Shown here: positions 41,542-52,821 of the stretch, piece by piece | How positions within the stretch are numbered: position 1 is the stretch's first letter | Layout: each line of letters begins with the position of its first letter | Source: a virus | Taxonomy: Duplodnaviria > Caudoviricetes | Length of the DNA: 64,000 nt | Strand: one strand, 5' to 3' | IMG/VR virus record: IMGVR_UViG_3300046460_000097 | Translations under genes and position numbers: made by a program | The notes under the pieces: model-generated | Databases searched by the model: none | What the model was told of the DNA's origin: nothing | The model's input: only the letters and a program-made list of their open reading frames with translations

Positions 41542-44007
41542 ATGCTACTTGAATTGGTACTTGAGAATTATGTCCCACTGTTGAGCAGCAACATTCATAA
41601 AGTGGAACTGAATACTGAACATATGATCAACCTGCTTATTTCTCAGAACGGTACTGGTAAGACCAGCATTCTGAAAGAAGCGAATCCGAACCCTCCGGAG
41701 AACGGTAACTATAAAAATGGTCGTAAGTATTCCAAGTGGCGTTTTGGTTCTAACACTTATGAGTTAGACGGCTACACAGGGATTGGTAACGGCCATAGCT
41801 TCAAGGTAAATGGGGGTCCGGAACTCAACACCGGTGGCACCTTTTCCGTACAGAAGGAGTTGGTAGACGCTCACTTCCAAATGGACTCGGGCATGACCAA
41901 GGTGTTGAGTGGGTTGCGCATTGTTGACAGACTGTCCGCTATGTCGCCTGCTCGCCGTAAAGATGTGTTGATGCAGATCTACCCTAACGACACCGATTAT
42001 GCGTTGGGGGTTTACAACAGGCTTAAATCAGAACGGAATGAACTCAAGGCTGCGATCAAGAATCAGATTGGTCGTTATACCGAAGAGAACCGTAAGCTGT
42101 CCTACATCAACGAGGCCGGCATTGATCAGCTAGAAATCCGCATTAAAGGAATCGAGGAAGAGCTTAAGCAGTCTCTCTTGATTCGTGGTGGTTTGGAGAA
42201 CGTTGATATCGATCCTGCACTCCAGTCCAAGGTCGATACTTTCAACCGCCTGACCGACCAACTGTTGGCCAACAAGTTGAGCGGGATCATCTGGACTGAG
42301 AACGAATACCTCGACGCCATTGAGACGGCTACGCGTATTCTGAATCGCCATCAGGAACAGGCGGCTATCCTGCAAGGCATCATCAGTGAGCACGCCAGTT
42401 ATCTCGACGGGCTAGAAGAGTTCCTCAAGGACCCTGATAGCTTTAAGGAACAAGCGGGTCACATTAAGGATGACATCGCTTCTACTCTGGCTCAGATTGA
42501 AGTGATTAACTTGGGGATGCAGCAATACCCTGTGTTCAACGATCCTGAGAGCCCGCTGGAGCGACTGGAAGAAGTAGTTATCCAGTTTATCGGCTACGTT
42601 GATCGCGTAACTGTAGCGAGCACTCAGGAGCTTACAGGTAACCAGTATAAAGGTTATCTGCAGCAACAAGAACAGGCGGCGGTAAAGATCAGAGCTTTAG
42701 CATCTGACATCACTGACCTGACGCATGAGCTGAAGCATTATGACAGTGCAGCGTTAATCGACTGTCCCGATTGCAACAGCCAGTTCAAGATCGGTGTGAC
42801 TAAAGCCGACGTAGATAAGAAACGTATGATCCTAGAAGCTCATCAGGGTCAGCTGAGCAAATTAGAAGCAGCTCAGGAAAAGCTGCAGGTCCTCATCGAG
42901 AATGATGCGGATTGGTATGTGAGCATGAACCAACTGTTTACCTTCGTTCGGGATAACAGCCACGTTCGTATCCTGCCAGATTTGATCAAGCAGTTTGAAG
43001 TGGGTAAGGTGCACAGTCGTAGGCTCCACAACGCACTGGAGTTGTTCCAGAAGCGTTTCGACCTGCAACAGCACCGAGACACGCTGGGTAAAGAAGAGTC
43101 TCTCCTAGACGCTCGTATCGCCCTTCTAGACCGTAATAACGTTCTGGATGTGGCGATCTATGTTAGCAGCACTGAACAAGAGCTGCGTAAGGAGAACGAG
43201 AAGATCTCGTTTTATCGGGCTAAACTCGATAAGCTCAACAACACTTTGCGTTCCATTCAAACTTATGGGAGCGATGTAAAACGGTTAGACGTACTTCGGC
43301 ATGAAATCCTTGTTGGTTTAGAGAGTCAGGGTAAGTTCAATTTGCGCGGTGTGGTTGATCAGCGCATCAGTGAATTGACTACCGATAAAGAGAACTATCT
43401 GACCTCGATCATCAAGAGCAAATCATTGACGGCGGTGGTTCAGTCTATTTCGGCGGACATTGAGCGTATGAAACGACGCTTGAAGATTGTCGATATTCTG
43501 ATGAATGGCTTGTGCCCGAATAAAGGTCTGATTGGTAAGTTGATGTCTGACTTCATCACCAGTATCTGCGGTAACATGAATGCCGTCATCAGCCAGATCT
43601 GGAACACCCCACTGTACATCAAGCCGTGTGCGAAAGAGAATGGGGACTTGACGTATAAGTTCCCAGTCGTCAAAGGGGAGAAAGACGGAGCACCAGACGT
43701 GTCAGATTGCAGTGCAGGGGAAGCAGACATCTTGGACTGGGTATTCCGGTTCGTACTGCTGGGATACCACAAGTTCCCGTTCCCACTTGTAATGGACGAA
43801 GTAGGACCTTTCTTGGATGAGATCAAACGAGGACGGTTCTTCAACTTTGTTCAGGAGTACACGCAAGGCAAAGACGCACGTCAGTTGTTCCTAGTGTCAC
43901 ATTACTTCGGTCAGTTGGGTGTTTTCAAAGACGCCAACATCATTGCACTGCGGTACGAAGGTCTCACTCTTCCGGGTGAGGTTAATCAGCACTCAACAGT
44001 AATGTAA
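41542..44007 (+). CDS. sbcC: SbcC/Rad50-like SMC ATPase
   Basis: Walker A QNGTGKTS, long coiled coils with central CPDC zinc hook, signature CSAGE, Walker B LVMDE, H-loop VSH. Confidence 0.9.
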   Translation: MLLELVLENYVPLLSSNIHKVELNTEHMINLLISQNGTGKTSILKEANPNPPENGNYKNGRKYSKWRFGSNTYELDGYTGIGNGHSFKVNGGPELNTGGTFSVQKELVDAHFQMDSGMTKVLSGLRIVDRLSAMSPARRKDVLMQIYPNDTDYALGVYNRLKSERNELKAAIKNQIGRYTEENRKLSYINEAGIDQLEIRIKGIEEELKQSLLIRGGLENVDIDPALQSKVDTFNRLTDQLLANKLSGIIWTENEYLDAIETATRILNRHQEQAAILQGIISEHASYLDGLEEFLKDPDSFKEQAGHIKDDIASTLAQIEVINLGMQQYPVFNDPESPLERLEEVVIQFIGYVDRVTVASTQELTGNQYKGYLQQQEQAAVKIRALASDITDLTHELKHYDSAALIDCPDCNSQFKIGVTKADVDKKRMILEAHQGQLSKLEAAQEKLQVLIENDADWYVSMNQLFTFVRDNSHVRILPDLIKQFEVGKVHSRRLHNALELFQKRFDLQQHRDTLGKEESLLDARIALLDRNNVLDVAIYVSSTEQELRKENEKISFYRAKLDKLNNTLRSIQTYGSDVKRLDVLRHEILVGLESQGKFNLRGVVDQRISELTTDKENYLTSIIKSKSLTAVVQSISADIERMKRRLKIVDILMNGLCPNKGLIGKLMSDFITSICGNMNAVISQIWNTPLYIKPCAKENGDLTYKFPVVKGEKDGAPDVSDCSAGEADILDWVFRFVLLGYHKFPFPLVMDEVGPFLDEIKRGRFFNFVQEYTQGKDARQLFLVSHYFGQLGVFKDANIIALRYEGLTLPGEVNQHSTVM

Positions 44008-44024
44008 TTTTAAACCTATATTAC
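44008..44024 (+). promoter_or_regulatory. Early-type promoter
   Basis: ttttaaacctatattac with TATATTAC at 44017-44024. Confidence 0.7.
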
Positions 44025-44133: not shown

Positions 44134-44406
44134 ATGCAAACAGTTCAGATCCCAATAGCGAATGCAGCGGATGGTTCGCTTGTTCCACATCCACAAGGCC
44201 AAGGGCTTGCCACGGTGACGTTTAACTACGACATGAATGGCAAAACCGCAATCATCAACTTCATGGGTAACAACCAAGCCCTGATCACGTTCGATGAAAC
44301 CGGTAACCAGCCTGTCAGCTACATGCCGTACAGCCCAATGGCCACCCAGCAAGATCTGGCCAGCATCGAAAACATCATGCGTTACATCCCCCAACTCTTC
44401 CATTGA
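44134..44406 (+). CDS. Small hypothetical protein, first gene after an early-type promoter
   Basis: 90 aa, high-expression codon usage. Confidence 0.7.
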   Translation: MQTVQIPIANAADGSLVPHPQGQGLATVTFNYDMNGKTAIINFMGNNQALITFDETGNQPVSYMPYSPMATQQDLASIENIMRYIPQLFH

Positions 44407-44410
44407 GTAA

Positions 44411-44887
44411 TTGCCCGACATGAATGTACAGAAGTACTTTAACCAGGACCCTGATGAATTCATAGGGTCCTTTGAGCCTATTACAGTTTCCATGCAGAGC
44501 CGCAACAATAAGGCCACCATCGAACTGGGGTTGGTTAAGGATAATAACAAGTTGTGTTTTGTTATCGGAAAGCGGTTACAGAGTGAAGGATCACTCCTAA
44601 TTCTTGATCAAGTGCGTCTGTCACTTGCATCCCAGCGAACGTTCGAAGATCGCCCATCTCATTGGTCTACTTGTAGTTTCTACCGCCATGAGTTCCTGCG
44701 TAGAGCGTTCGAAGATTTTGTTAATGCTTCACCCTTTGTATCTTTTATAAGAGCCAACGTCAACCCATTGGCCGTATCACAACTGTTTGCCAATCTAAGG
44801 GACATTAGTCCTAAACTAATAAGCTTTCAGCTAGGGAATCATCATGAGAAAGGAAGAAGTCATTGCGAGGTACCAAGAGCTGGTTAA
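44411..44887 (+). CDS. Hypothetical protein
   Basis: 158 aa (TTG start, or ATG 44420), AT-rich, overlaps the next gene. Confidence 0.5.
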   Translation: MPDMNVQKYFNQDPDEFIGSFEPITVSMQSRNNKATIELGLVKDNNKLCFVIGKRLQSEGSLLILDQVRLSLASQRTFEDRPSHWSTCSFYRHEFLRRAFEDFVNASPFVSFIRANVNPLAVSQLFANLRDISPKLISFQLGNHHEKGRSHCEVPRAG

Positions 44888-45287
44888 GGAGCTTGTTGAG
44901 CCCGCACACAACGTAGTACTGAGCGCCGGATCTGCTTCGGTGATGATGGGTCTCCGCGATGAGACTGACGACTTGGATGCAGATGTACTGCCCGGTGTAT
45001 TCAAATGGGCCTGCGCCGTCAAGAAAGCAACCGTCATCGTTGAAGAGAATGTAAACGATCGGATCAAGTATTCCGATAAGGTTGATTTGCACATCCTCGA
45101 TGAAGATCGTGGGCGTGTTTGTATCGAGGGGGTCTGGGTCTACAGTCCCCAAGAGCTGTTGAATCAAAAGCGTTATCTGATGCGCATGCCTAACCGCCGT
45201 GCAGAGAAGATGCTACGTGACCAGTTGGAAGTATCTCAGCTGGAAGAACTTATCCGTAAACCTAAATTTACTGCGAAGGCCGTTTAA
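44844..45287 (+). CDS. Minimal Pol-beta-superfamily nucleotidyltransferase
   Basis: VLSAGSASVMMGLRDETDDLDADV fits hG[GS]-x(9-13)-DxD; third Asp candidate in KVDLH. Confidence 0.65.
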   Translation: MRKEEVIARYQELVKELVEPAHNVVLSAGSASVMMGLRDETDDLDADVLPGVFKWACAVKKATVIVEENVNDRIKYSDKVDLHILDEDRGRVCIEGVWVYSPQELLNQKRYLMRMPNRRAEKMLRDQLEVSQLEELIRKPKFTAKAV

Positions 45288-45758
45288 ATGGAAGACCTCG
45301 TTGAACTCCGTAAGCGAGTTATGTTTAAAGGCAAAGAAAAAGTAGCTGACGCTATTCGTATCTTCGCTGACAACTGGAACATCCCCCTCGATCAAGTCTG
45401 TGTCGGTGGTGGTGCTGCGTTGGTGCTCATGGGTATCCGTGAAGAAACTCACGATCTGAACCTGTGGGTCGATTCGCCGTACTTCGAGAAGCTAGCGGAA
45501 GAAATGAAGACCATCAACCACCCAATGGTTGACACTGTCATCATGATGCCGAACGTATTCACCTACGTGCGCCAGCGCAATCGCTACTTCGGTCACGACG
45601 TGATCGGCGGTATTCAGGTCTTCAACGTTCTGGCACTGATTGTCCAGAAGCGCGGTGGCTATGCTGAACCTGCCCGTCCGGTAGCGAAGCGTAAACAAGA
45701 TCGAATGGACTTGCGCATCCTCGCCGAGATCCATGCAACACGTAACAAAGTGGCTTAG
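45288..45758 (+). CDS. Nucleotidyltransferase-like paralog with degenerate DxD (D-L-N)
   Basis: VCVGGGAALVLMGIREETHDLNLWV aligns with the upstream gene; starts immediately after its stop. Confidence 0.6.
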   Translation: MEDLVELRKRVMFKGKEKVADAIRIFADNWNIPLDQVCVGGGAALVLMGIREETHDLNLWVDSPYFEKLAEEMKTINHPMVDTVIMMPNVFTYVRQRNRYFGHDVIGGIQVFNVLALIVQKRGGYAEPARPVAKRKQDRMDLRILAEIHATRNKVA

Positions 45759-45764
45759 TAAGAC

Positions 45765-45803
45765 CCTTAAGTACCGGTGGGTAACTCCACTTGGTACTTA
45801 AGG
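45765..45803 (+). terminator. Terminator hairpin
   Basis: ccttaagtaccggtgg...ccacttggtacttaagg followed by T-rich sequence. Confidence 0.7.
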
Positions 45804-45838: not shown

Positions 45839-47854
45839 ATGGAAATCCATTCGAATCCTACCGTTTATGCTGAAATGAAAAAGCTAAACGATGACATCCT
45901 GTATCACAATGATCTTTACCACAACAAAGACACTCACGTTATTCCCCACAGTGAGTTCGATGCCATGGTAGAACGCTTTGATGAACTGGCTGAGATCTAT
46001 CCGGATATCGCCAAGTTGTTTGTTCATCAACAGAAGGCGGTTCCACTGCACGACCTGACTAACGAAGGGCTGGAGATCGTTGTATTCGATTCTCCCATGC
46101 TCAGTCTGAAGAAGGCTTTAACGTGGCCGCAGTTTGATGCTTGGCTCAACAAGTTTCCTAGCGCCGTCTATCTCGCTATTGTTTACGAGAAGAAGATTGA
46201 CGGGTTGGCGCTTGAGATCCGTTACCTCGACTGGAAACTGCACAAGATCTTTACCCGGGGTGATGGCCTAAAGGGCGAGGACGTTACCCATTCATTCCGT
46301 CTGTTCGGTAACATTCCTGCCGAGATCCCAAAGGTAGTTGGTGGTGGGTTACTGGTTCCGGGAGATCTGGTGGTTCGTGGTGAAGGGTGCATTACTATCC
46401 ATGATTTCCTGCGTTACAACGAGACTGCGGTTAAACCTGCAGCTAATCCTCGTAATGCGGTAAGTGGCTGGGTGCGTGCGCTAGAGAAGAACCAGAACAA
46501 AGACGTGGTCGGCATCCTGCAGTTCTACACCTATTGGTCTAACACCAGTATGGGAGCTGAAGATTACAACGACCTGCGTAGTTGCTGGGAGGCTATTGGC
46601 TTCTACCCTGCGCCGTTATCTTGTCTTGAAGACATCCGTAACGACTACCAAGACACTATCCTGCCAACTGATGGGATTGTGGGCAAGGTGCGTAGCTTCA
46701 CCGTGCAGGAAGCGCTCGGCTACACTAACAAGCACCCTAACTGGGCGATTGCGTACAAGTTCCCAGATGAAGAGAAGGAATCCCCTCTCGAACGTGTTAT
46801 CTGGCAAACCTCTATGACGGGCCGTGTTGTACCCGTCGTGGAATACACCCCTATTGAGTTAGGTGGTGTAACTTGTCGTCGGGCCAATCTGGATAACTAC
46901 CACCAATTCATGGCGTTGGAACTTCATGAAGATTCTGTACTGGGTATTACGCGTAACGGGAATGTTATTCCTCGTGTTAGCCGTGTTGTCGATCGTGGGT
47001 TTGGTAGTCGCCTTAAAGCTCCTGTGGAATGCCCTAGCTGCAATTCCAAGCTGGAGCTGAAGACAGGGAAGACTAGCACTGACCTCGTCTGTAAGAACGT
47101 CATAGGCTGTTCTAGCCAGCTTCTTAACCGCTGTGTATCGTTGGTTAACAAACGTTGCCTCGATATCGACGGGTTAGGACCGGTGCAGTTGGGTGAACTG
47201 ATTACCCACAAGAAGATCAGCAGTACCGCAGACCTCTTCATGATGACTCCTCAGCATGTGGGGGATAAACTGTACGCAGAGATTCAAGGCAGTCGTATTC
47301 AGTTCCTGCATCGTGCTATCAAGGCGCTGGGGCTTCCTGGGATCGACCTGATCCGTGCGAAGAAGATTGCCAAGGCCATGAGTCATATCAAGGTTGATGG
47401 TGACGTGGACAGCCGCGGGGACATGTTGCACTTCATCGGTAATGTAGACAACCTCGTAAAGATCCCGGGTATCTCTACCGGTATCGCACTTCCTATCGCG
47501 AAAACGTTGGAAGACAATGCTTTCTGGAAGAACGCCCTTAACGTATTGATGTACTTGGACATTCTGCCGGAAGGTGACACCGATAACGATCTCAAGGTTT
47601 GTATAACGGGGGAGCTGGGACTATCTCGTGACGAACTGATTGATTACTTTGCCGATCAAGGTATCGAATTGGTGGACAACCTCACCAAGAGCTGTGTCGC
47701 TTTGATCGTGGGTGAGAAGCCCGGAAACGTCAAGCTGTTAAAGGCAACTGAGCTAGGTATCTTTATGGTGAATTCTGATAAAGCATCTAGCATCGATAAC
47801 CTGATCGAACAGATCAAGAACCACAACCAAGGGGACGTGCATGACAACCGCTAA
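45839..47854 (+). CDS. ligA: NAD+-dependent DNA ligase
   Basis: Ia domain YHN...D..FD, motif I KIDG, TRGDG..GEDVT, WAIAYKF, OB fold, C4 zinc finger (CPSC...C...C), HhH and BRCT. Confidence 0.95.
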   Translation: MEIHSNPTVYAEMKKLNDDILYHNDLYHNKDTHVIPHSEFDAMVERFDELAEIYPDIAKLFVHQQKAVPLHDLTNEGLEIVVFDSPMLSLKKALTWPQFDAWLNKFPSAVYLAIVYEKKIDGLALEIRYLDWKLHKIFTRGDGLKGEDVTHSFRLFGNIPAEIPKVVGGGLLVPGDLVVRGEGCITIHDFLRYNETAVKPAANPRNAVSGWVRALEKNQNKDVVGILQFYTYWSNTSMGAEDYNDLRSCWEAIGFYPAPLSCLEDIRNDYQDTILPTDGIVGKVRSFTVQEALGYTNKHPNWAIAYKFPDEEKESPLERVIWQTSMTGRVVPVVEYTPIELGGVTCRRANLDNYHQFMALELHEDSVLGITRNGNVIPRVSRVVDRGFGSRLKAPVECPSCNSKLELKTGKTSTDLVCKNVIGCSSQLLNRCVSLVNKRCLDIDGLGPVQLGELITHKKISSTADLFMMTPQHVGDKLYAEIQGSRIQFLHRAIKALGLPGIDLIRAKKIAKAMSHIKVDGDVDSRGDMLHFIGNVDNLVKIPGISTGIALPIAKTLEDNAFWKNALNVLMYLDILPEGDTDNDLKVCITGELGLSRDELIDYFADQGIELVDNLTKSCVALIVGEKPGNVKLLKATELGIFMVNSDKASSIDNLIEQIKNHNQGDVHDNR

Positions 47855-49505
47855 GACCAAGAAGCTGGACCATAACGAAGTCCAGAAGCAAACCACCGCC
47901 GCTGTTAAAGCGCTACCGAAAGACGTCAAGGAAGAACTGGATGAACTCGTTACAAAGAACATCGAAGCCAACAAAGGCAAAGCAGTGGCCAAAGCGGTTG
48001 CAGCGGCTGAAGAATCTCTCACACAAAGTGAAGATGTTTCTAAAGGTGGCAGTAAGCTGATCATGGAAACGGGTCTGACTTCGGTCATCCACATTACTCC
48101 GGCACAGGCACGTATGCTGACCGCCAACTCTGGCGACGTACTGCGTGAAATTAACAAGAAGACCGGCGTGTCGTTGGAAGTGGCTGAAGACGGCGAAGTG
48201 AAGATCAAGGGTGACACGGCAAAAGCGATTGATCTGGCGCACTCGTTTATCTTGGACGTGATAACCACTCCTGGTGAACTGGTTGCTACTCTTGATAGCG
48301 GTACCGGTAAGGTCATCGACTACCGTCTGAAGCGCCCGCTGACGTTTGAAGAACGCGAGCTGCTGCCAAAGCCATGGGTGATCATTGACGGTGTCCAGAT
48401 CGAACCCAAGGCGACCGGTCTCAAGTTGTCTGGCGGGCGTATTGTCCCTAACCAAACACCGTTGACCTATGAGCGTGACGTCTACATCAACTACTACGGC
48501 GCTGACTCCAAAGACCTGACATTCACTCAGTTCGCGGTGGTCATCAACGGCCGTACTGTTACCGTCATGCTCGATGAGAAGTCGACTCTGGAAGTCACCA
48601 ACACCTACTTCGGTAGCGAACGGTCTGACTCCGATGCAGCAATCCAGCGTAATGCACTGGTGACCCTCATCAACTCCAGCAGCCGTAACGACAGCTTCTT
48701 CGGCGACAACCTGTTGATCGGTCTCGAGTCGACGTATAGCTCGTACACCGATGCCTGCGTCAGCAAGACCCTCACTGGCAGCTACCGCGCCAAGACACCG
48801 CCGCCGATCGTTGACCTGCCGTGGGACTCTCGTGGTGCCAGCTTTGGCACGGACCGTAATAAGGTCTCTCACACTACTTTCCGCCAAGCGTTGATCGAAG
48901 GCACCATCTTGGCATCTGGTGTGTACAAGAATGTGCAGATCTTTGCGTCGACTATCAAGAGTGAGCATTCCGTTACGTTTGAGAACGTGAGCATGGACGG
49001 TGACACTATCAAGGCGAAGTCTATCGTCATGAAGCACACCACCACCAAGGGCTTCCGTTTGATGACCGATGGGCCGGTGTTGATTGTTAACACTCGCTTT
49101 AAAGATGTTGCTCCGGTTCTCCCTGGGCTGTACATGCCGAACAAGTTCTGTGCGTTGCAGATCGATTTGCCGCTCGGTCAGTTGTCCATGTACCGTGAAA
49201 GCAAAGAAAAGATTTGCCTGACGGTCAACTCGTACATTTCGGTCGTGATGAATCTGGACGATGACTTCGACACGATCGAAGAGAAGGTTGCCGAGCTGAT
49301 GACCAAGTCTGCCGGCGGCTGGGGGAATACTTCCGGCATCGATCCGAAAGACAACGATCCGCTGACCCGCAATCTGATGATATATGTGGTGGCTGCTATC
49401 CGCTCCCGCATCAAGGTCATCAAACTGTTGGACAGTGCTATCAAGGTGGCTGAAACCATCACCGCAACCGGTCGTGACGACTACTACGATCAACAACCGT
49501 TCTGA
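47841..49505 (+). CDS. PNPase-like KH domain fused to a beta-repeat domain
   Basis: IHITPAQARMLTANSGDVLREINKKTGVSLEVAEDGEVKI resembles the PNPase KH segment; remainder is paralogous to 49573..50559. Confidence 0.6.
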   Translation: MTTAKTKKLDHNEVQKQTTAAVKALPKDVKEELDELVTKNIEANKGKAVAKAVAAAEESLTQSEDVSKGGSKLIMETGLTSVIHITPAQARMLTANSGDVLREINKKTGVSLEVAEDGEVKIKGDTAKAIDLAHSFILDVITTPGELVATLDSGTGKVIDYRLKRPLTFEERELLPKPWVIIDGVQIEPKATGLKLSGGRIVPNQTPLTYERDVYINYYGADSKDLTFTQFAVVINGRTVTVMLDEKSTLEVTNTYFGSERSDSDAAIQRNALVTLINSSSRNDSFFGDNLLIGLESTYSSYTDACVSKTLTGSYRAKTPPPIVDLPWDSRGASFGTDRNKVSHTTFRQALIEGTILASGVYKNVQIFASTIKSEHSVTFENVSMDGDTIKAKSIVMKHTTTKGFRLMTDGPVLIVNTRFKDVAPVLPGLYMPNKFCALQIDLPLGQLSMYRESKEKICLTVNSYISVVMNLDDDFDTIEEKVAELMTKSAGGWGNTSGIDPKDNDPLTRNLMIYVVAAIRSRIKVIKLLDSAIKVAETITATGRDDYYDQQPF

Positions 49506-51471: not shown

Positions 51472-52359
51472 GTGACTTCACCTAATAATCACGTTGTATG
51501 TATTTACCACGATCACTGCTTGGATGGTATCGCAGCTGCGTGGGTGGTTTGGCGACATTTCAAAAACCTCGGGTTGGAGATCACTCTGATTCCCGGGGTT
51601 TACAATAAGCCGCTGCCAGAAGGTTTGGCAGGCAAGACTGTTTTCGTTGTCGACTTCAGCTTTGACCGTGAGAAGACGGAGTGGTTGATTGAAAACACCA
51701 ACCTGGTTCTGCTCGATCACCACAAGTCGGCTAAGAAGGCGCTCCAAGGCTTGTGTGAGGTCGATCTGACTTATTCTGGTGCGATGCTAGCTTGGCGGTA
51801 CTTCAACCCCAACACGCCGGCTCCAGAAGCTATCCGTTACGTTGAAGATAACGACCTGTGGAAGTTTACCTACCCTAGCACCAAAGCGTGGGTAACTGCG
51901 GCGTTCTCTTATCCGCTGACCGTAGAGATCTTCGACTCGTTGGTTAACCGTGATCCACTGGACATGGTAGCCGAGGGCGAAACCCTTCTGCGTAAACAGC
52001 GGCAGGACATTAAGCGTATCTTGCACAATACCCGGACCATGATTGTTTTCGGTATGGAAGTTCCGGTGATTAACGCCAACATCATGTTCACATCTGATCT
52101 TGGCGATGCCTTGTACCACGTCTATCCGCTGGTTGTGATTTACTCCGACCAAGCCGACGGACGTAAGTTCTCGTTCCGCAGTAAAAAGGTTACAGGTTAT
52201 CCGGTAAACGAGATTGCTGAATATTTCGGTGGCGGCGGCCATGGTGAAGCAGCAAGTTTCACGCTTCCATTCTCTGATAAGCGTTTCGCCAAATCGCACA
52301 TGATGTTGAACCGGTCTATCTGGGACTGCGTCAAGTTGTACTTCAAGAACTTGTTCTAA
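51472..52359 (+). CDS. DHH/DHHA1 family phosphoesterase (NrnA/NrnB-like)
   Basis: YHDHCLDG, VVDFS, LLDHHKSA, VEDNDLW and DHHA1 GGGGHGEAAS motifs. Confidence 0.9.
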   Translation: MTSPNNHVVCIYHDHCLDGIAAAWVVWRHFKNLGLEITLIPGVYNKPLPEGLAGKTVFVVDFSFDREKTEWLIENTNLVLLDHHKSAKKALQGLCEVDLTYSGAMLAWRYFNPNTPAPEAIRYVEDNDLWKFTYPSTKAWVTAAFSYPLTVEIFDSLVNRDPLDMVAEGETLLRKQRQDIKRILHNTRTMIVFGMEVPVINANIMFTSDLGDALYHVYPLVVIYSDQADGRKFSFRSKKVTGYPVNEIAEYFGGGGHGEAASFTLPFSDKRFAKSHMMLNRSIWDCVKLYFKNLF

Positions 52360-52371
52360 AGGAAGACAAGA

Positions 52372-52821
52372 ATGGAGCTCAATTATAGCTACGTCAGCGT
52401 CCAACTCAAATCCGAGTTTCAAGCTGATGTAATCGCTCGTTTACTGGAAGCCGGTATTACACCGGAGTCTAAGCACGAGTTGCACTGCACAATGATCTAT
52501 GACGACCGCGACATTGAGAAACCTCTCTGTGCCTTGTTGCCAGAAAAGGAATTCACCGCGAGCATCATTAAGCTGGAACCTTTGGGCGACGGCATCGTTT
52601 TCCATTTGACTGGTAAGGAACTGAACGATGAGTTCCGCCGGTTGAAGGATGCGGGCTACCAGCACTCGTTTGGTACTCCCCTGTTTCACATGTCGTTGAA
52701 GTATGACTTCGACAAATACGACATCATGGCAATCAATGCGGCCTTCTCTGATTGGATGGGGCGCCAACTGGTTTTCAACAACGAATGCTTCGGCTACAAG
52801 AAAGTTAAGAAGGCAGCATGA
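52372..52821 (+). CDS. acb1: 2H phosphoesterase, Acb1 (T4 gp57B)-like anti-CBASS nuclease candidate
   Basis: 149 aa with two HxT/S motifs (LHCTMIY at H38; HSFGTPLFHMSLKY at H106); size and spacing resemble T4 57B (IHSTICY; HDFDDYTPHITLSY). Confidence 0.7.
   Translation: MELNYSYVSVQLKSEFQADVIARLLEAGITPESKHELHCTMIYDDRDIEKPLCALLPEKEFTASIIKLEPLGDGIVFHLTGKELNDEFRRLKDAGYQHSFGTPLFHMSLKYDFDKYDIMAINAAFSDWMGRQLVFNNECFGYKKVKKAA

What the first reader, a model, noticed from the sequence alone, without database searches (positions are those of the whole stretch)
44844..45758. Tandem minimal nucleotidyltransferases: one intact, one apparently catalytically dead
Seen: two abutting ~150-aa paralogs. The first has GS...TDDLD with a plausible third Asp. 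The second has GG...THDLN and no obvious third acid. Both keep a C-terminal QKR...R..K...D motif. Known: Pol-beta-fold NTases need the DxD pair; minimal NTases act in toxin-antitoxin systems (MntA, MenT), antibiotic adenylylation and nucleotide signalling. Inference: an enzyme plus pseudo-enzyme pair that modifies a host target, repairs tRNA ends, AMPylates a defence toxin, or binds nucleotide signals.
Basis: partly seen in the sequence, partly recalled or inferred. Interest (0 to 1): 0.7.

Follow-up and report, generated by a model that had tools for sequence, protein, structure and literature searches.

The report
Phage nucleotidyltransferase with conserved inactive twin
Two neighbouring genes of a soil relative of the giant Pseudomonas phage EL encode copies of one small, unstudied nucleotide-transferring enzyme: the first keeps its catalytic site, the second has lost it but is still strongly conserved, and what they act on is unknown.

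Summary
A (44844-45287, 147 aa) and B (45288-45758, 156 aa) are real paralogs: 29% identity, E 1e-8, and both match phrog_12854. Confident models of both have the small Pol-beta-type nucleotidyltransferase fold. The best matches are TM1012, MenT1, LnuA, ANT(2'')-Ia and MenT3, at Z 9-10.6.

A carries the residues that MenT toxins need: T41-x-D43-x-D45, K109 and D126. B keeps T54, D56, K121 and D138 but has Asn58 for the second metal Asp, an invariant Trp60, and Phe/Tyr/Arg where the family has D/S-x-H.

B is not decaying. Its clade is monophyletic (support 98), and dN/dS is 0.06 against a 94%-identical relative. It always lies just downstream of a family member in the block SbcC-like, ~95-aa gene, A, B, NAD ligase.

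Two points are new here. Single-copy family members almost always keep DxD (119-120 of 122). One EL-like sublineage has also lost the catalytic residues in A, so some phages have no intact copy.

The substrate and any A-B contact are untested; the heterodimer prediction gave no verdict. The family is absent from Pfam and from the papers I searched. This scan already reported the same pair on EL-like genomes, with the same reading. Best reading: a new variant of MenT/AbiEii/DUF6036-like enzymes, an enzyme plus a pseudoenzyme.

The parts
44844..45287 (+). Gene A: 147-aa minimal nucleotidyltransferase with an intact catalytic set (G29-S30; T41, D43, D45 at 44964-44978; K109; D126). Ortholog of phage EL gp120.
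   Evidence: ORF. phrog_12854 at 2e-29. 52% identity to EL gp120. AF2 model pLDDT 89. Fold matches TM1012 Z 10.6, LnuA 10.0, MenT1 9.9. Residue census.
45288..45758 (+). Gene B: 156-aa paralog with a rebuilt, probably non-catalytic site (T54, D56, N58, W60 at 45447-45467; F91/Y93/R95/N98/Y100). It keeps K121, R130, K134 and D138. Ortholog of EL gp121. The start may instead be Met12 at 45321.
   Evidence: ORF. phrog_12854 at 4e-24. 36% identity to EL gp121. AF2 model pLDDT 90.8. Fold matches MenT1 Z 10.0, TM1012 9.4, LnuA 9.4. Monophyletic clade, support 98. dN/dS 0.06.
45765..45803 (+). Strong hairpin followed by a U-rich stretch right after B. It is the likely terminator of the transcription unit that ends with A-B and separates it from the ligase gene.
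   Evidence: RNA fold -27 kcal/mol, z -5.0, 0 of 200 shuffles as stable. The simple terminator scan missed it because of its long loop.
44134..44406 (+). Conserved 90-aa gene (phrog_16812, function unknown), ortholog of EL gp119. A ~90-100-aa gene occupies this place upstream of A in all longer EL-like contigs. It is a probable operon mate; its role is unknown.
   Evidence: ORF. phrog_16812 at 5e-10. Synteny.
44411..44887 (+). Extra ORF between the 90-aa gene and A, overlapping the start of A by 44 nt. It is absent from EL but has a look-alike in contig L015 (3800-4180). Function unknown.
   Evidence: ORF. Similar C-terminal block in the L015 ORF, seen by eye. No Pfam or PHROG match.
45839..47854 (+). 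Context only: NAD-dependent DNA ligase (ortholog of EL gp122). It lies directly downstream of B in every EL-like contig long enough to show it.
   Evidence: Pfam DNA_ligase_aden 3e-37, OB and BRCT domains. Synteny.

Best explanation
A and B come from an old tandem duplication of a small nucleotidyltransferase. That enzyme belongs to an uncharacterised, mostly jumbo-phage family distantly related to the MenT/AbiEii (DUF1814) and DUF6036 branch of the Pol-beta superfamily.

Shown: both proteins have this fold. A keeps every residue that MenT toxins need for NTP/Mg binding and transfer (T-x-D-x-D, Lys, Asp). B has replaced the second metal Asp with Asn and filled the catalytic face with Trp, Phe/Tyr and Arg, while keeping the Lys/Arg/Asp helix that holds the triphosphate in MenT1. 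B is under strong purifying selection. The pair lies at the end of one terminator-bounded unit, and B never occurs without a family member directly upstream.

Inferred: A transfers a nucleotide, most likely to an RNA 3' end such as a tRNA acceptor end, as MenT1/MenT3 do. B cannot catalyse two-metal transfer and instead binds the substrate or a nucleotide. In that reading B acts with A as a non-catalytic specificity or regulatory partner, much like the duplicated non-catalytic NTase-like domain of giant-virus and poxvirus poly(A) polymerases. The target and the purpose (host takeover, RNA-end repair or counter-defence) are not known.
For: Fold: the A model (pLDDT 89) matches TM1012 at Z 10.6, 5uvd 10.2, LnuA 10.0, MenT1 9.9, MenT3 9.4 and ANT(2'') 9.2. 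The B model (pLDDT 90.8) matches MenT1 at 10.0 and TM1012/LnuA/5uvd at 9.4.

Sequence link: AbiEii models of PADLOC hit 21 and 17 of 150 family representatives (best 1e-5), and DUF6036 hits 6 weakly.

Catalytic map: MenT1 needs T39, D41, D43, K137 and D152 (PMC10435456, PMC11375011). A has the same pattern and B has Asn for the second Asp.

Constraint on catalysis: single-copy members keep D43 in 119 of 122 and D45 in 120 of 122. B-clade representatives have N in 18 of 19, D in 0 of 19 and Trp60 in 19 of 19.

Selection: the B clade is monophyletic, support 98. dN/dS is 0.06 at dS 0.67. Against a 97.1%-identical contig, the 915 bp of A-B show only 3 differences, all synonymous.

Linkage: every B has a family member directly upstream, with conserved synteny and a hairpin terminator after B.

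Precedent: giant-virus poly(A) polymerases combine a catalytic domain with a duplicated NTase-like domain (PMC4402537), and they appear among the Foldseek matches.
Against: There is no evidence that A and B touch. No activity, substrate or expression data exist.

In one EL-like sublineage (10 of 40 tips of the A clade, including contigs L008 and L015) the A copy has itself lost D43/D45, and in L008 also the Lys/Asp helix motif, while B is retained. So the conserved role of the locus cannot depend on A's catalysis everywhere.

One B lineage (L011/P0111) has also lost D56, N58, K134 and D138, so B's nucleotide pocket is not indispensable either.

An Asn can ligate Mg, as in protein kinases (own knowledge), so B may not be fully inert.

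Structural similarity to antibiotic nucleotidyltransferases is as high as to MenT toxins, so an RNA substrate is only a preference.
Confidence: 0.45

Rival explanations
1. The two proteins act independently, and the important, conserved one is B. In this reading B is a non-catalytic binder: a decoy or sponge for a nucleotide or an RNA 3' end, or a mimic that neutralises host AbiEii/MenT-type toxins. A is an accessory enzyme that some lineages can do without.
For: B is present and conserved in every EL-like contig, whereas A's catalytic residues are lost in a whole sublineage. dN/dS of B is 0.06. B's invariant residues (W60, R95, N98, Y100) are new ones, not the ancestral catalytic ones. AbiEi-type antitoxin chains also appear among the fold matches (6y8q at Z 8.4 and 7.6; 1zel, annotated Rv2827c, at 6.4 and 6.2). 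Nucleus-forming phages stay exposed to defences that act on RNA and translation (own knowledge).
Against: B is never found without a family member directly upstream. B is no closer in structure to AbiEi than to the toxins. B diverges faster than A between this phage and EL: 36% versus 52% identity. No ligand or target is indicated by any result.
Confidence: 0.28
2. A is a small-molecule nucleotidyltransferase of the ANT(2'')/Lnu type. It would inactivate an anti-phage or antibiotic compound met in soil, with B as a substrate-binding relative.
For: The best Foldseek matches are ANT(2'')-Ia and LnuA, with Z 9.2-10.0. Atlas neighbours include Aminoglyc_resit clusters. Distant family members are fused to GNAT acetyltransferase, and to GNAT plus NUDIX domains (P0106, P0176). 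The phage comes from soil and rhizosphere metagenomes.
Against: A and B do not match Pfam Aminoglyc_resit or any resistance model. The T-x-D-x-D / K / D motif set is that of MenT/AbiEii. The fusions lie in distant branches of the family. A lytic phage has no known need for such an enzyme.
Confidence: 0.12
3. This is a toxin-regulator pair in the MenAT/AbiE manner. A would be a translation-blocking tRNA nucleotidyltransferase used for host shut-off, and B would restrain it, for example by inducing phosphorylation of A's Thr41.
For: A's T41 sits where MenT1 T39 and MenT3 S78 are auto-phosphorylated under antitoxin control (PMC11375011; bioRxiv 10.64898/2026.01.19.700257). The two genes are co-transcribed and adjacent.
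Against: Known MenA/AbiEi antitoxins are not paralogs of their toxins. No COG5340-type partner is present. Single-copy relatives in other phages have no such partner. A global tRNA block would also hurt the phage.
Confidence: 0.08
4. This is a DNA or RNA end-repair module working with the neighbouring NAD ligase, RNase H and SbcC-like protein. It would resemble ligase-associated RlaP nucleotidyltransferases, which restore lost nucleotides before sealing.
For: The order SbcC-like, A, B, NAD ligase, RNase H is constant in EL-like contigs. Jumbo phages are reported to use ligase-associated NTases for RNA repair (PMC7824862).
Against: A strong terminator separates B from the ligase. Family members outside the EL group are not next to ligases. 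No RlaP family appears in the Pfam results for A or B. The synteny may only reflect the general collinearity of related genomes.
Confidence: 0.05

Closest known systems
MenT1/MenT3/MenT4 and AbiEii (DUF1814, PF08843) nucleotidyltransferase toxins
   Same: Same core fold: Z 9.9-10.0 to MenT1, 8.4-9.4 to MenT3. Same motif set in A: T/S-x-D-x-D, Lys, Asp. PADLOC AbiEii models hit up to 21 of 150 family members.
   Different: A and B match no AbiEii model themselves. At 147-156 aa they are much shorter than MenT3/MenT4 or AbiEii. No MenA/AbiEi antitoxin gene is present. They are encoded by a lytic jumbo phage, and the partner is a paralogous pseudoenzyme. Activity on tRNA is untested.
DUF6036 (PF19502) / TM1012 (PDB 2ewr) small nucleotidyltransferases of unknown function
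   Same: Best structural match (Z 10.6 for A) and similar size (~150 aa). Six family members give weak DUF6036 hits, and Atlas neighbours carry DUF6036.
   Different: No hit for A or B even at E 10, and member hits are below the Pfam cut-off. DUF6036 itself has no known function, so this adds no mechanism.
ANT(2'')-Ia and LnuA antibiotic adenylyltransferases
   Same: Same minimal fold and size; top Foldseek matches (E 1e-4, TM 0.5) and Z 9.2-10.0.
   Different: No sequence-family match. Sequence identity is 9-16%. No resistance context.
Catalytic plus duplicated non-catalytic NTase-like domains of Mimivirus/Megavirus and vaccinia poly(A) polymerases
   Same: An active NTase module paired with a diverged duplicate of the same topology in a large DNA virus. 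These chains are among the fold matches (TM 0.52-0.55).
   Different: There the two modules are domains of one chain and lack detectable sequence similarity to each other. Here they are two genes that are still 29% identical. The poly(A) function is not shown here.
MntA-type minimal NTases of HEPN-MNT toxin-antitoxin systems
   Same: Small size and the GS...DxD pattern.
   Different: No NTP_transf_2 match, no HEPN neighbour, and a different C-terminal motif (QKR...R...K...QD).
Phage EL gp120/gp121 (YP_418153, YP_418154), annotated hypothetical
   Same: Direct orthologs (52% and 36% identity) in the same gene order.
   Different: None in kind. I found no functional study of them.

Membership tests
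Pol-beta superfamily nucleotidyltransferase fold | alpha-beta-alpha-beta core with the G[GS] turn and the acidic strand | tested here: met
   Models of A and B (pLDDT 89 and 90.8) match seven NTase entries at Z 8-10.6 over 120-140 residues, above unrelated rows.
Pol-beta superfamily nucleotidyltransferase fold | Catalytic pattern hG[GS]x9-13Dh[DE]h | tested here: met
   Met for A: AGS then D43-L-D45-A. Not met for B: GGG then D56-L-N58-L.
MenT/AbiEii (DUF1814, PF08843) | Match to the family profile | tested here: not met
   No Pfam hit for A or B at E 10. No PADLOC AbiEii hit at E 10. PF08843 finds nothing in the nearest phage record. Only other family members hit AbiEii models, best 1e-5.
MenT/AbiEii (DUF1814, PF08843) | Conserved active-site residues T/S-x-D(-x-D), Lys, Asp (MenT1 T39, D41, D43, K137, D152) | tested here: met
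   By motif order, A has T41, D43, D45, K109 and D126. B has all of these except the second Asp. The match rests on sequence pattern, not on a superposition.
MenT/AbiEii (DUF1814, PF08843) | Adjacent cognate antitoxin (MenA / AbiEi, COG5340) | tested here: not met
   Neighbouring genes have no such domains. The neighbour is a paralog.
MenT/AbiEii (DUF1814, PF08843) | Growth inhibition and nucleotide addition to tRNA 3' ends | not testable with these tools
   Needs expression and in vitro assays.
DUF6036 (PF19502) | Match above the Pfam gathering score | tested here: not met
   No hit for A or B. Six of 150 members give sub-threshold hits, best 1.6e-3.
HEPN-MNT (MntA) antitoxins | NTP_transf_2-type domain with a HEPN gene next to it | tested here: not met
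   No Pfam match. No HEPN family among the neighbours.
ANT(2'')/Lnu antibiotic nucleotidyltransferases | Match to the Aminoglyc_resit / Lnu family models | tested here: not met
   No Pfam or NCBIfam resistance model matches A. Fold similarity only.
RlaP ligase-associated NTases | RlaP profile match and association with an RNA ligase | tested here: not met
   No Pfam match of any kind for A, and only a weak ParM_N match for B. The neighbour is an NAD-dependent DNA ligase behind a terminator.
phrog_12854 (phage proteins, unknown function) | Profile match | tested here: met
   A at 2e-29, B at 4e-24, both full length.

The most novel reading that the evidence does not exclude
B is a new kind of phage counter-defence protein. 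It would be a nucleotidyltransferase-derived pseudoenzyme whose rebuilt aromatic/arginine pocket captures either tRNA 3' ends or host MenT/AbiEii-type toxins (or a nucleotide signal). This would protect translation of a nucleus-forming phage. A would be an optional enzymatic helper, which would explain why some lineages keep only dead copies.
Probability: 0.1. Interest if true: 0.8.

Novelty: new variant of a known kind. Interest (0 to 1): 0.5.

Why it matters
MenT/AbiEii-type enzymes are known as bacterial toxins that stop translation during phage attack. Here a related but unstudied family is carried by jumbo phages themselves. In the EL group it comes as an enzyme plus a strongly conserved inactive twin. 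Finding the target would show whether phages use this chemistry for host takeover, RNA-end repair or counter-defence. It would also give a clean case of how a pseudoenzyme arises and is kept after duplication. The pair occurs in the cultured phage EL (gp120/gp121), so it can be tested directly.

Tried and rejected
- **Heterodimer prediction of A with B** (alignments A4 and A3): no verdict, score 0.00. It says nothing either way.
- **Fused forms:** no fused or longer form of B was found (weak evidence). No second family domain was found in the 11 long family members.
- **Sequence search of solved structures** with profiles A1 and A2: only chance-level rows.
- **DNA search:** megablast of the region against cultured phages found no match.
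- **Viral-contig scans:** the first scan with the wide B alignment failed for lack of a conserved stretch. A narrower alignment gave 4 loci.
- **AbiEii comparison:** PF08843 was sought in the nearest record and not found. The control genomes gave no loci, so I could not make a profile-profile comparison with AbiEii or DUF6036.
- **Literature:** searches for EL gp120/gp121, DUF6036 and phage MenT-like enzymes found no study of this family.
- **tRNA genes:** none in the window.
- **Atlas look-up of the 90-aa upstream protein:** nothing usable.
- **HEPN-MNT reading:** rejected, since there is no family match and no HEPN partner.
That Trp60, Phe91, Tyr93 and Arg95 face the active site is inferred from strand periodicity, not measured.

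Full report
**What is there**

The window is part of a soil/rhizosphere relative of Pseudomonas jumbo phage EL (Elvirus). The best cultured matches of protein A are EL-like phages at about 52% identity. The stretch is held by soil and rhizosphere metagenome runs.

ORF A (44844-45287, 147 aa) and ORF B (45288-45758, 156 aa) lie head to tail on the + strand, and the stop of A abuts the ATG of B. They are paralogs: 29% identity, E 1e-8. Both match phrog_12854, a phage family of unknown function, at 2e-29 and 4e-24. Neither matches any relevant Pfam, NCBIfam or PADLOC model.

B's orthologs mostly start at MFK. Met12 (45321) is therefore an alternative start for B.

**Fold**

AlphaFold models built on alignments of natural relatives are confident: A has pLDDT 89, B has 90.8, and both have the same order of elements.

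- A matches TM1012 (2ewr, Z 10.6, 127 residues), the 5uvd NTase-like protein (10.2), LnuA (10.0), MenT1 (9.9), MenT3/TglT (9.4) and ANT(2'')-Ia (9.2).
- Foldseek gives the same set for A, plus giant-virus and vaccinia poly(A) polymerases.
- B matches MenT1 (10.0), then 5uvd, TM1012 and LnuA (9.4 each).
- ESM-Atlas neighbours are clusters labelled nucleotidyltransferase, DUF6036, DUF2204, AbiEii and ANT(2'').

**The family**

A profile of A and B orthologs finds 606 cluster representatives at E <= 1e-3 among 1.84 billion proteins. Most are 130-150 aa.

Of the best 150, PADLOC AbiEii models hit 21 and 17 (best 1e-5), and Pfam DUF6036 hits 6 weakly.

Cultured carriers are all jumbo phages:

- Elvirus carries the pair.
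- Ralstonia RP12/RP31/FLC phages carry a single copy.
- Pseudomonas D6 and RVTF4 carry a single copy of about 250 aa.

Apart from EL, their gene contexts differ. Two distant members are fused to GNAT, or to GNAT plus NUDIX domains.

**Active-site map**

MenT1 depends on T39, D41, D43, K137 and D152. D41/D43 hold the metals and K137 holds the gamma-phosphate (PMC10435456, PMC11375011).

The family consensus has the same layout: R-x-x-T-x-D-x-D, then D/S-x-H, then Q-K, R, K and Q-D.

- A has T41, D43, D45, D47, D81, H83, K109, R118, K122 and D126.
- B has T54, D56, N58, W60, F91, Y93, K121, R130, K134 and D138.

Among cluster representatives:

| Group | First Asp | Second position | Other |
|---|---|---|---|
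| Single-copy members (122) | D in 119 | D in 120 | |
| B clade (19) | D in 17 | N in 18, C in 1, never D | Trp at the next inward position in 19 |

B's own invariant residues (G40, W60, F66, R95, N98, Y100, L145) are new ones.

By strand periodicity, W60, F91, Y93 and R95 should face the former catalytic site. That is inference, because I had no access to the model coordinates.

**Is B decaying? No**

- The B clade is monophyletic, with 29 tips and SH-aLRT support 98.
- Against a relative with 94% protein identity, dS is 0.67 and dN is 0.042, so dN/dS is 0.06.
- Against a contig that is 97.1% identical over 12.5 kb, the 915 bp of A-B show only three differences, all synonymous.

**Linkage**

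Every B found has a family member directly upstream. This covers ten distinct EL-like contigs or genomes besides this phage's own lineage; one of them starts at B, so its upstream side cannot be read.

The gene order is constant: SbcC-like (about 820 aa), a ~95-aa gene, A, B, NAD ligase, a 430-510-aa gene (554 aa in this window), then RNase H in most contigs.

A strong hairpin with a U-rich tail (-27 kcal/mol, z -5) follows B. A promoter-like site lies at 43993-44022. The 90-aa gene, an extra ORF, A and B therefore look like one unit, separate from the ligase.

**A complication that earlier notes did not report**

The A clade has 40 tips (support 98). It contains a sublineage of 10 tips with long branches in which A has lost D43, and often also D45, G29 and T41.

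- Contig L008 has an A with N-L-G in place of D-x-D and without the Lys/Asp helix motif, next to a normal B.
- Contig L015 has an A with K-T-N, a third truncated copy that is also incomplete, and a normal B.
- Two shallow D43N changes occur elsewhere in the clade.
- Conversely, one B lineage (L011/P0111) has lost D56, N58, K134 and D138 but keeps W60, R95, N98 and Y100.

So loss of catalytic residues is confined to the tandem context. Some phages appear to have no intact copy at this locus.

This weakens any model in which A's catalysis is the essential output. It raises the weight of a binding or scaffolding role, above all for B.

**Mechanism**

I commit to the enzyme-plus-pseudoenzyme model, with confidence 0.45. 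A transfers a nucleotide, most likely to an RNA 3' end as MenT toxins do. B cannot perform two-metal catalysis but keeps the triphosphate-holding helix, and it binds the substrate or a nucleotide and works with A.

Large DNA viruses offer a precedent. Their poly(A) polymerases combine a catalytic NTase domain with a duplicated non-catalytic one (PMC4402537).

The main rival (0.28) is that B acts alone as a binder or decoy, possibly in counter-defence. Lesser rivals are:

- a small-molecule ANT/Lnu-type enzyme (0.12);
- a MenAT-like toxin-regulator pair that uses Thr41 phosphorylation (0.08);
- ligase-linked end repair (0.05).

No tool result speaks to A-B contact: the single complex job gave no verdict.

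**Comparison and novelty**

The pair is not a member of PF08843, PF19502, HEPN-MNT, ANT(2'')/Lnu or RlaP by their profiles. It works most like MenT/AbiEii by motif and fold.

I found no paper on EL gp120/gp121 or on this family. The jumbo-phage survey PMC7824862 discusses RlaP and CCA-adding enzymes but, in the passages retrieved, not this family.

This scan has already noted and followed up the same pair in EL-like genomes, with the same main reading. My results agree with those notes. They add the dN/dS value, the contrast with single-copy members, the sublineage with a dead A, the third copy, the terminator and the GNAT/NUDIX fusions.

**Verdict**

This is a real, conserved gene pair and a new variant of a known kind. 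It is moderately interesting and can be tested directly in phage EL.

Noticed in passing
L015:4670-4990 (metagenomic EL-like contig): A third, truncated family copy (106 aa) sits between A and B. All three copies in this contig lack a complete T-x-D-x-D.
   Followed up: partly
L008:5573-5995: The A-position copy has N-L-G in place of D-x-D and has lost the C-terminal Lys/Asp motif, while B next to it is normal. This phage seems to have no catalytically intact copy at the locus.
   Followed up: partly
window 44411-44887: An ORF of up to 158 aa overlaps the start of A by 44 nt. It is absent from EL but has a look-alike in L015 (3800-4180). No family match.
   Followed up: partly
P0106 and P0176 (distant family members): The nucleotidyltransferase domain is fused to a GNAT acetyltransferase (P0106), and to GNAT plus NUDIX (P0176). 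This hints at small-molecule or nucleotide substrates in that branch.
   Followed up: partly
window 44844-45758 versus L005: A-B differ at only 3 of 915 bases (all synonymous) from a contig that is 97.1% identical over 12.5 kb. The pair is much better conserved than its surroundings.
   Followed up: yes
window 52372-52821 and 51472-52359: A 149-aa protein matches Pfam Acb1 (anti-CBASS 2H phosphoesterase, E 8e-8). It lies next to a DHH/DHHA1 protein. The same DHH-Acb1 pair lies near a single-copy family member in contig L021.
   Followed up: no
window 47841-49505: A 554-aa protein with a marginal KH_1 match (E 1.5e-4, residues 82-138) and no PHROG match.
   Followed up: no
L023:2509-3261 and L024:3932-4669 (Pseudomonas phages D6 and RVTF4): Single family members of about 250 aa with an unassigned C-terminal extension. 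They lie between a dihydrofolate reductase gene and the large terminase gene.
   Followed up: no
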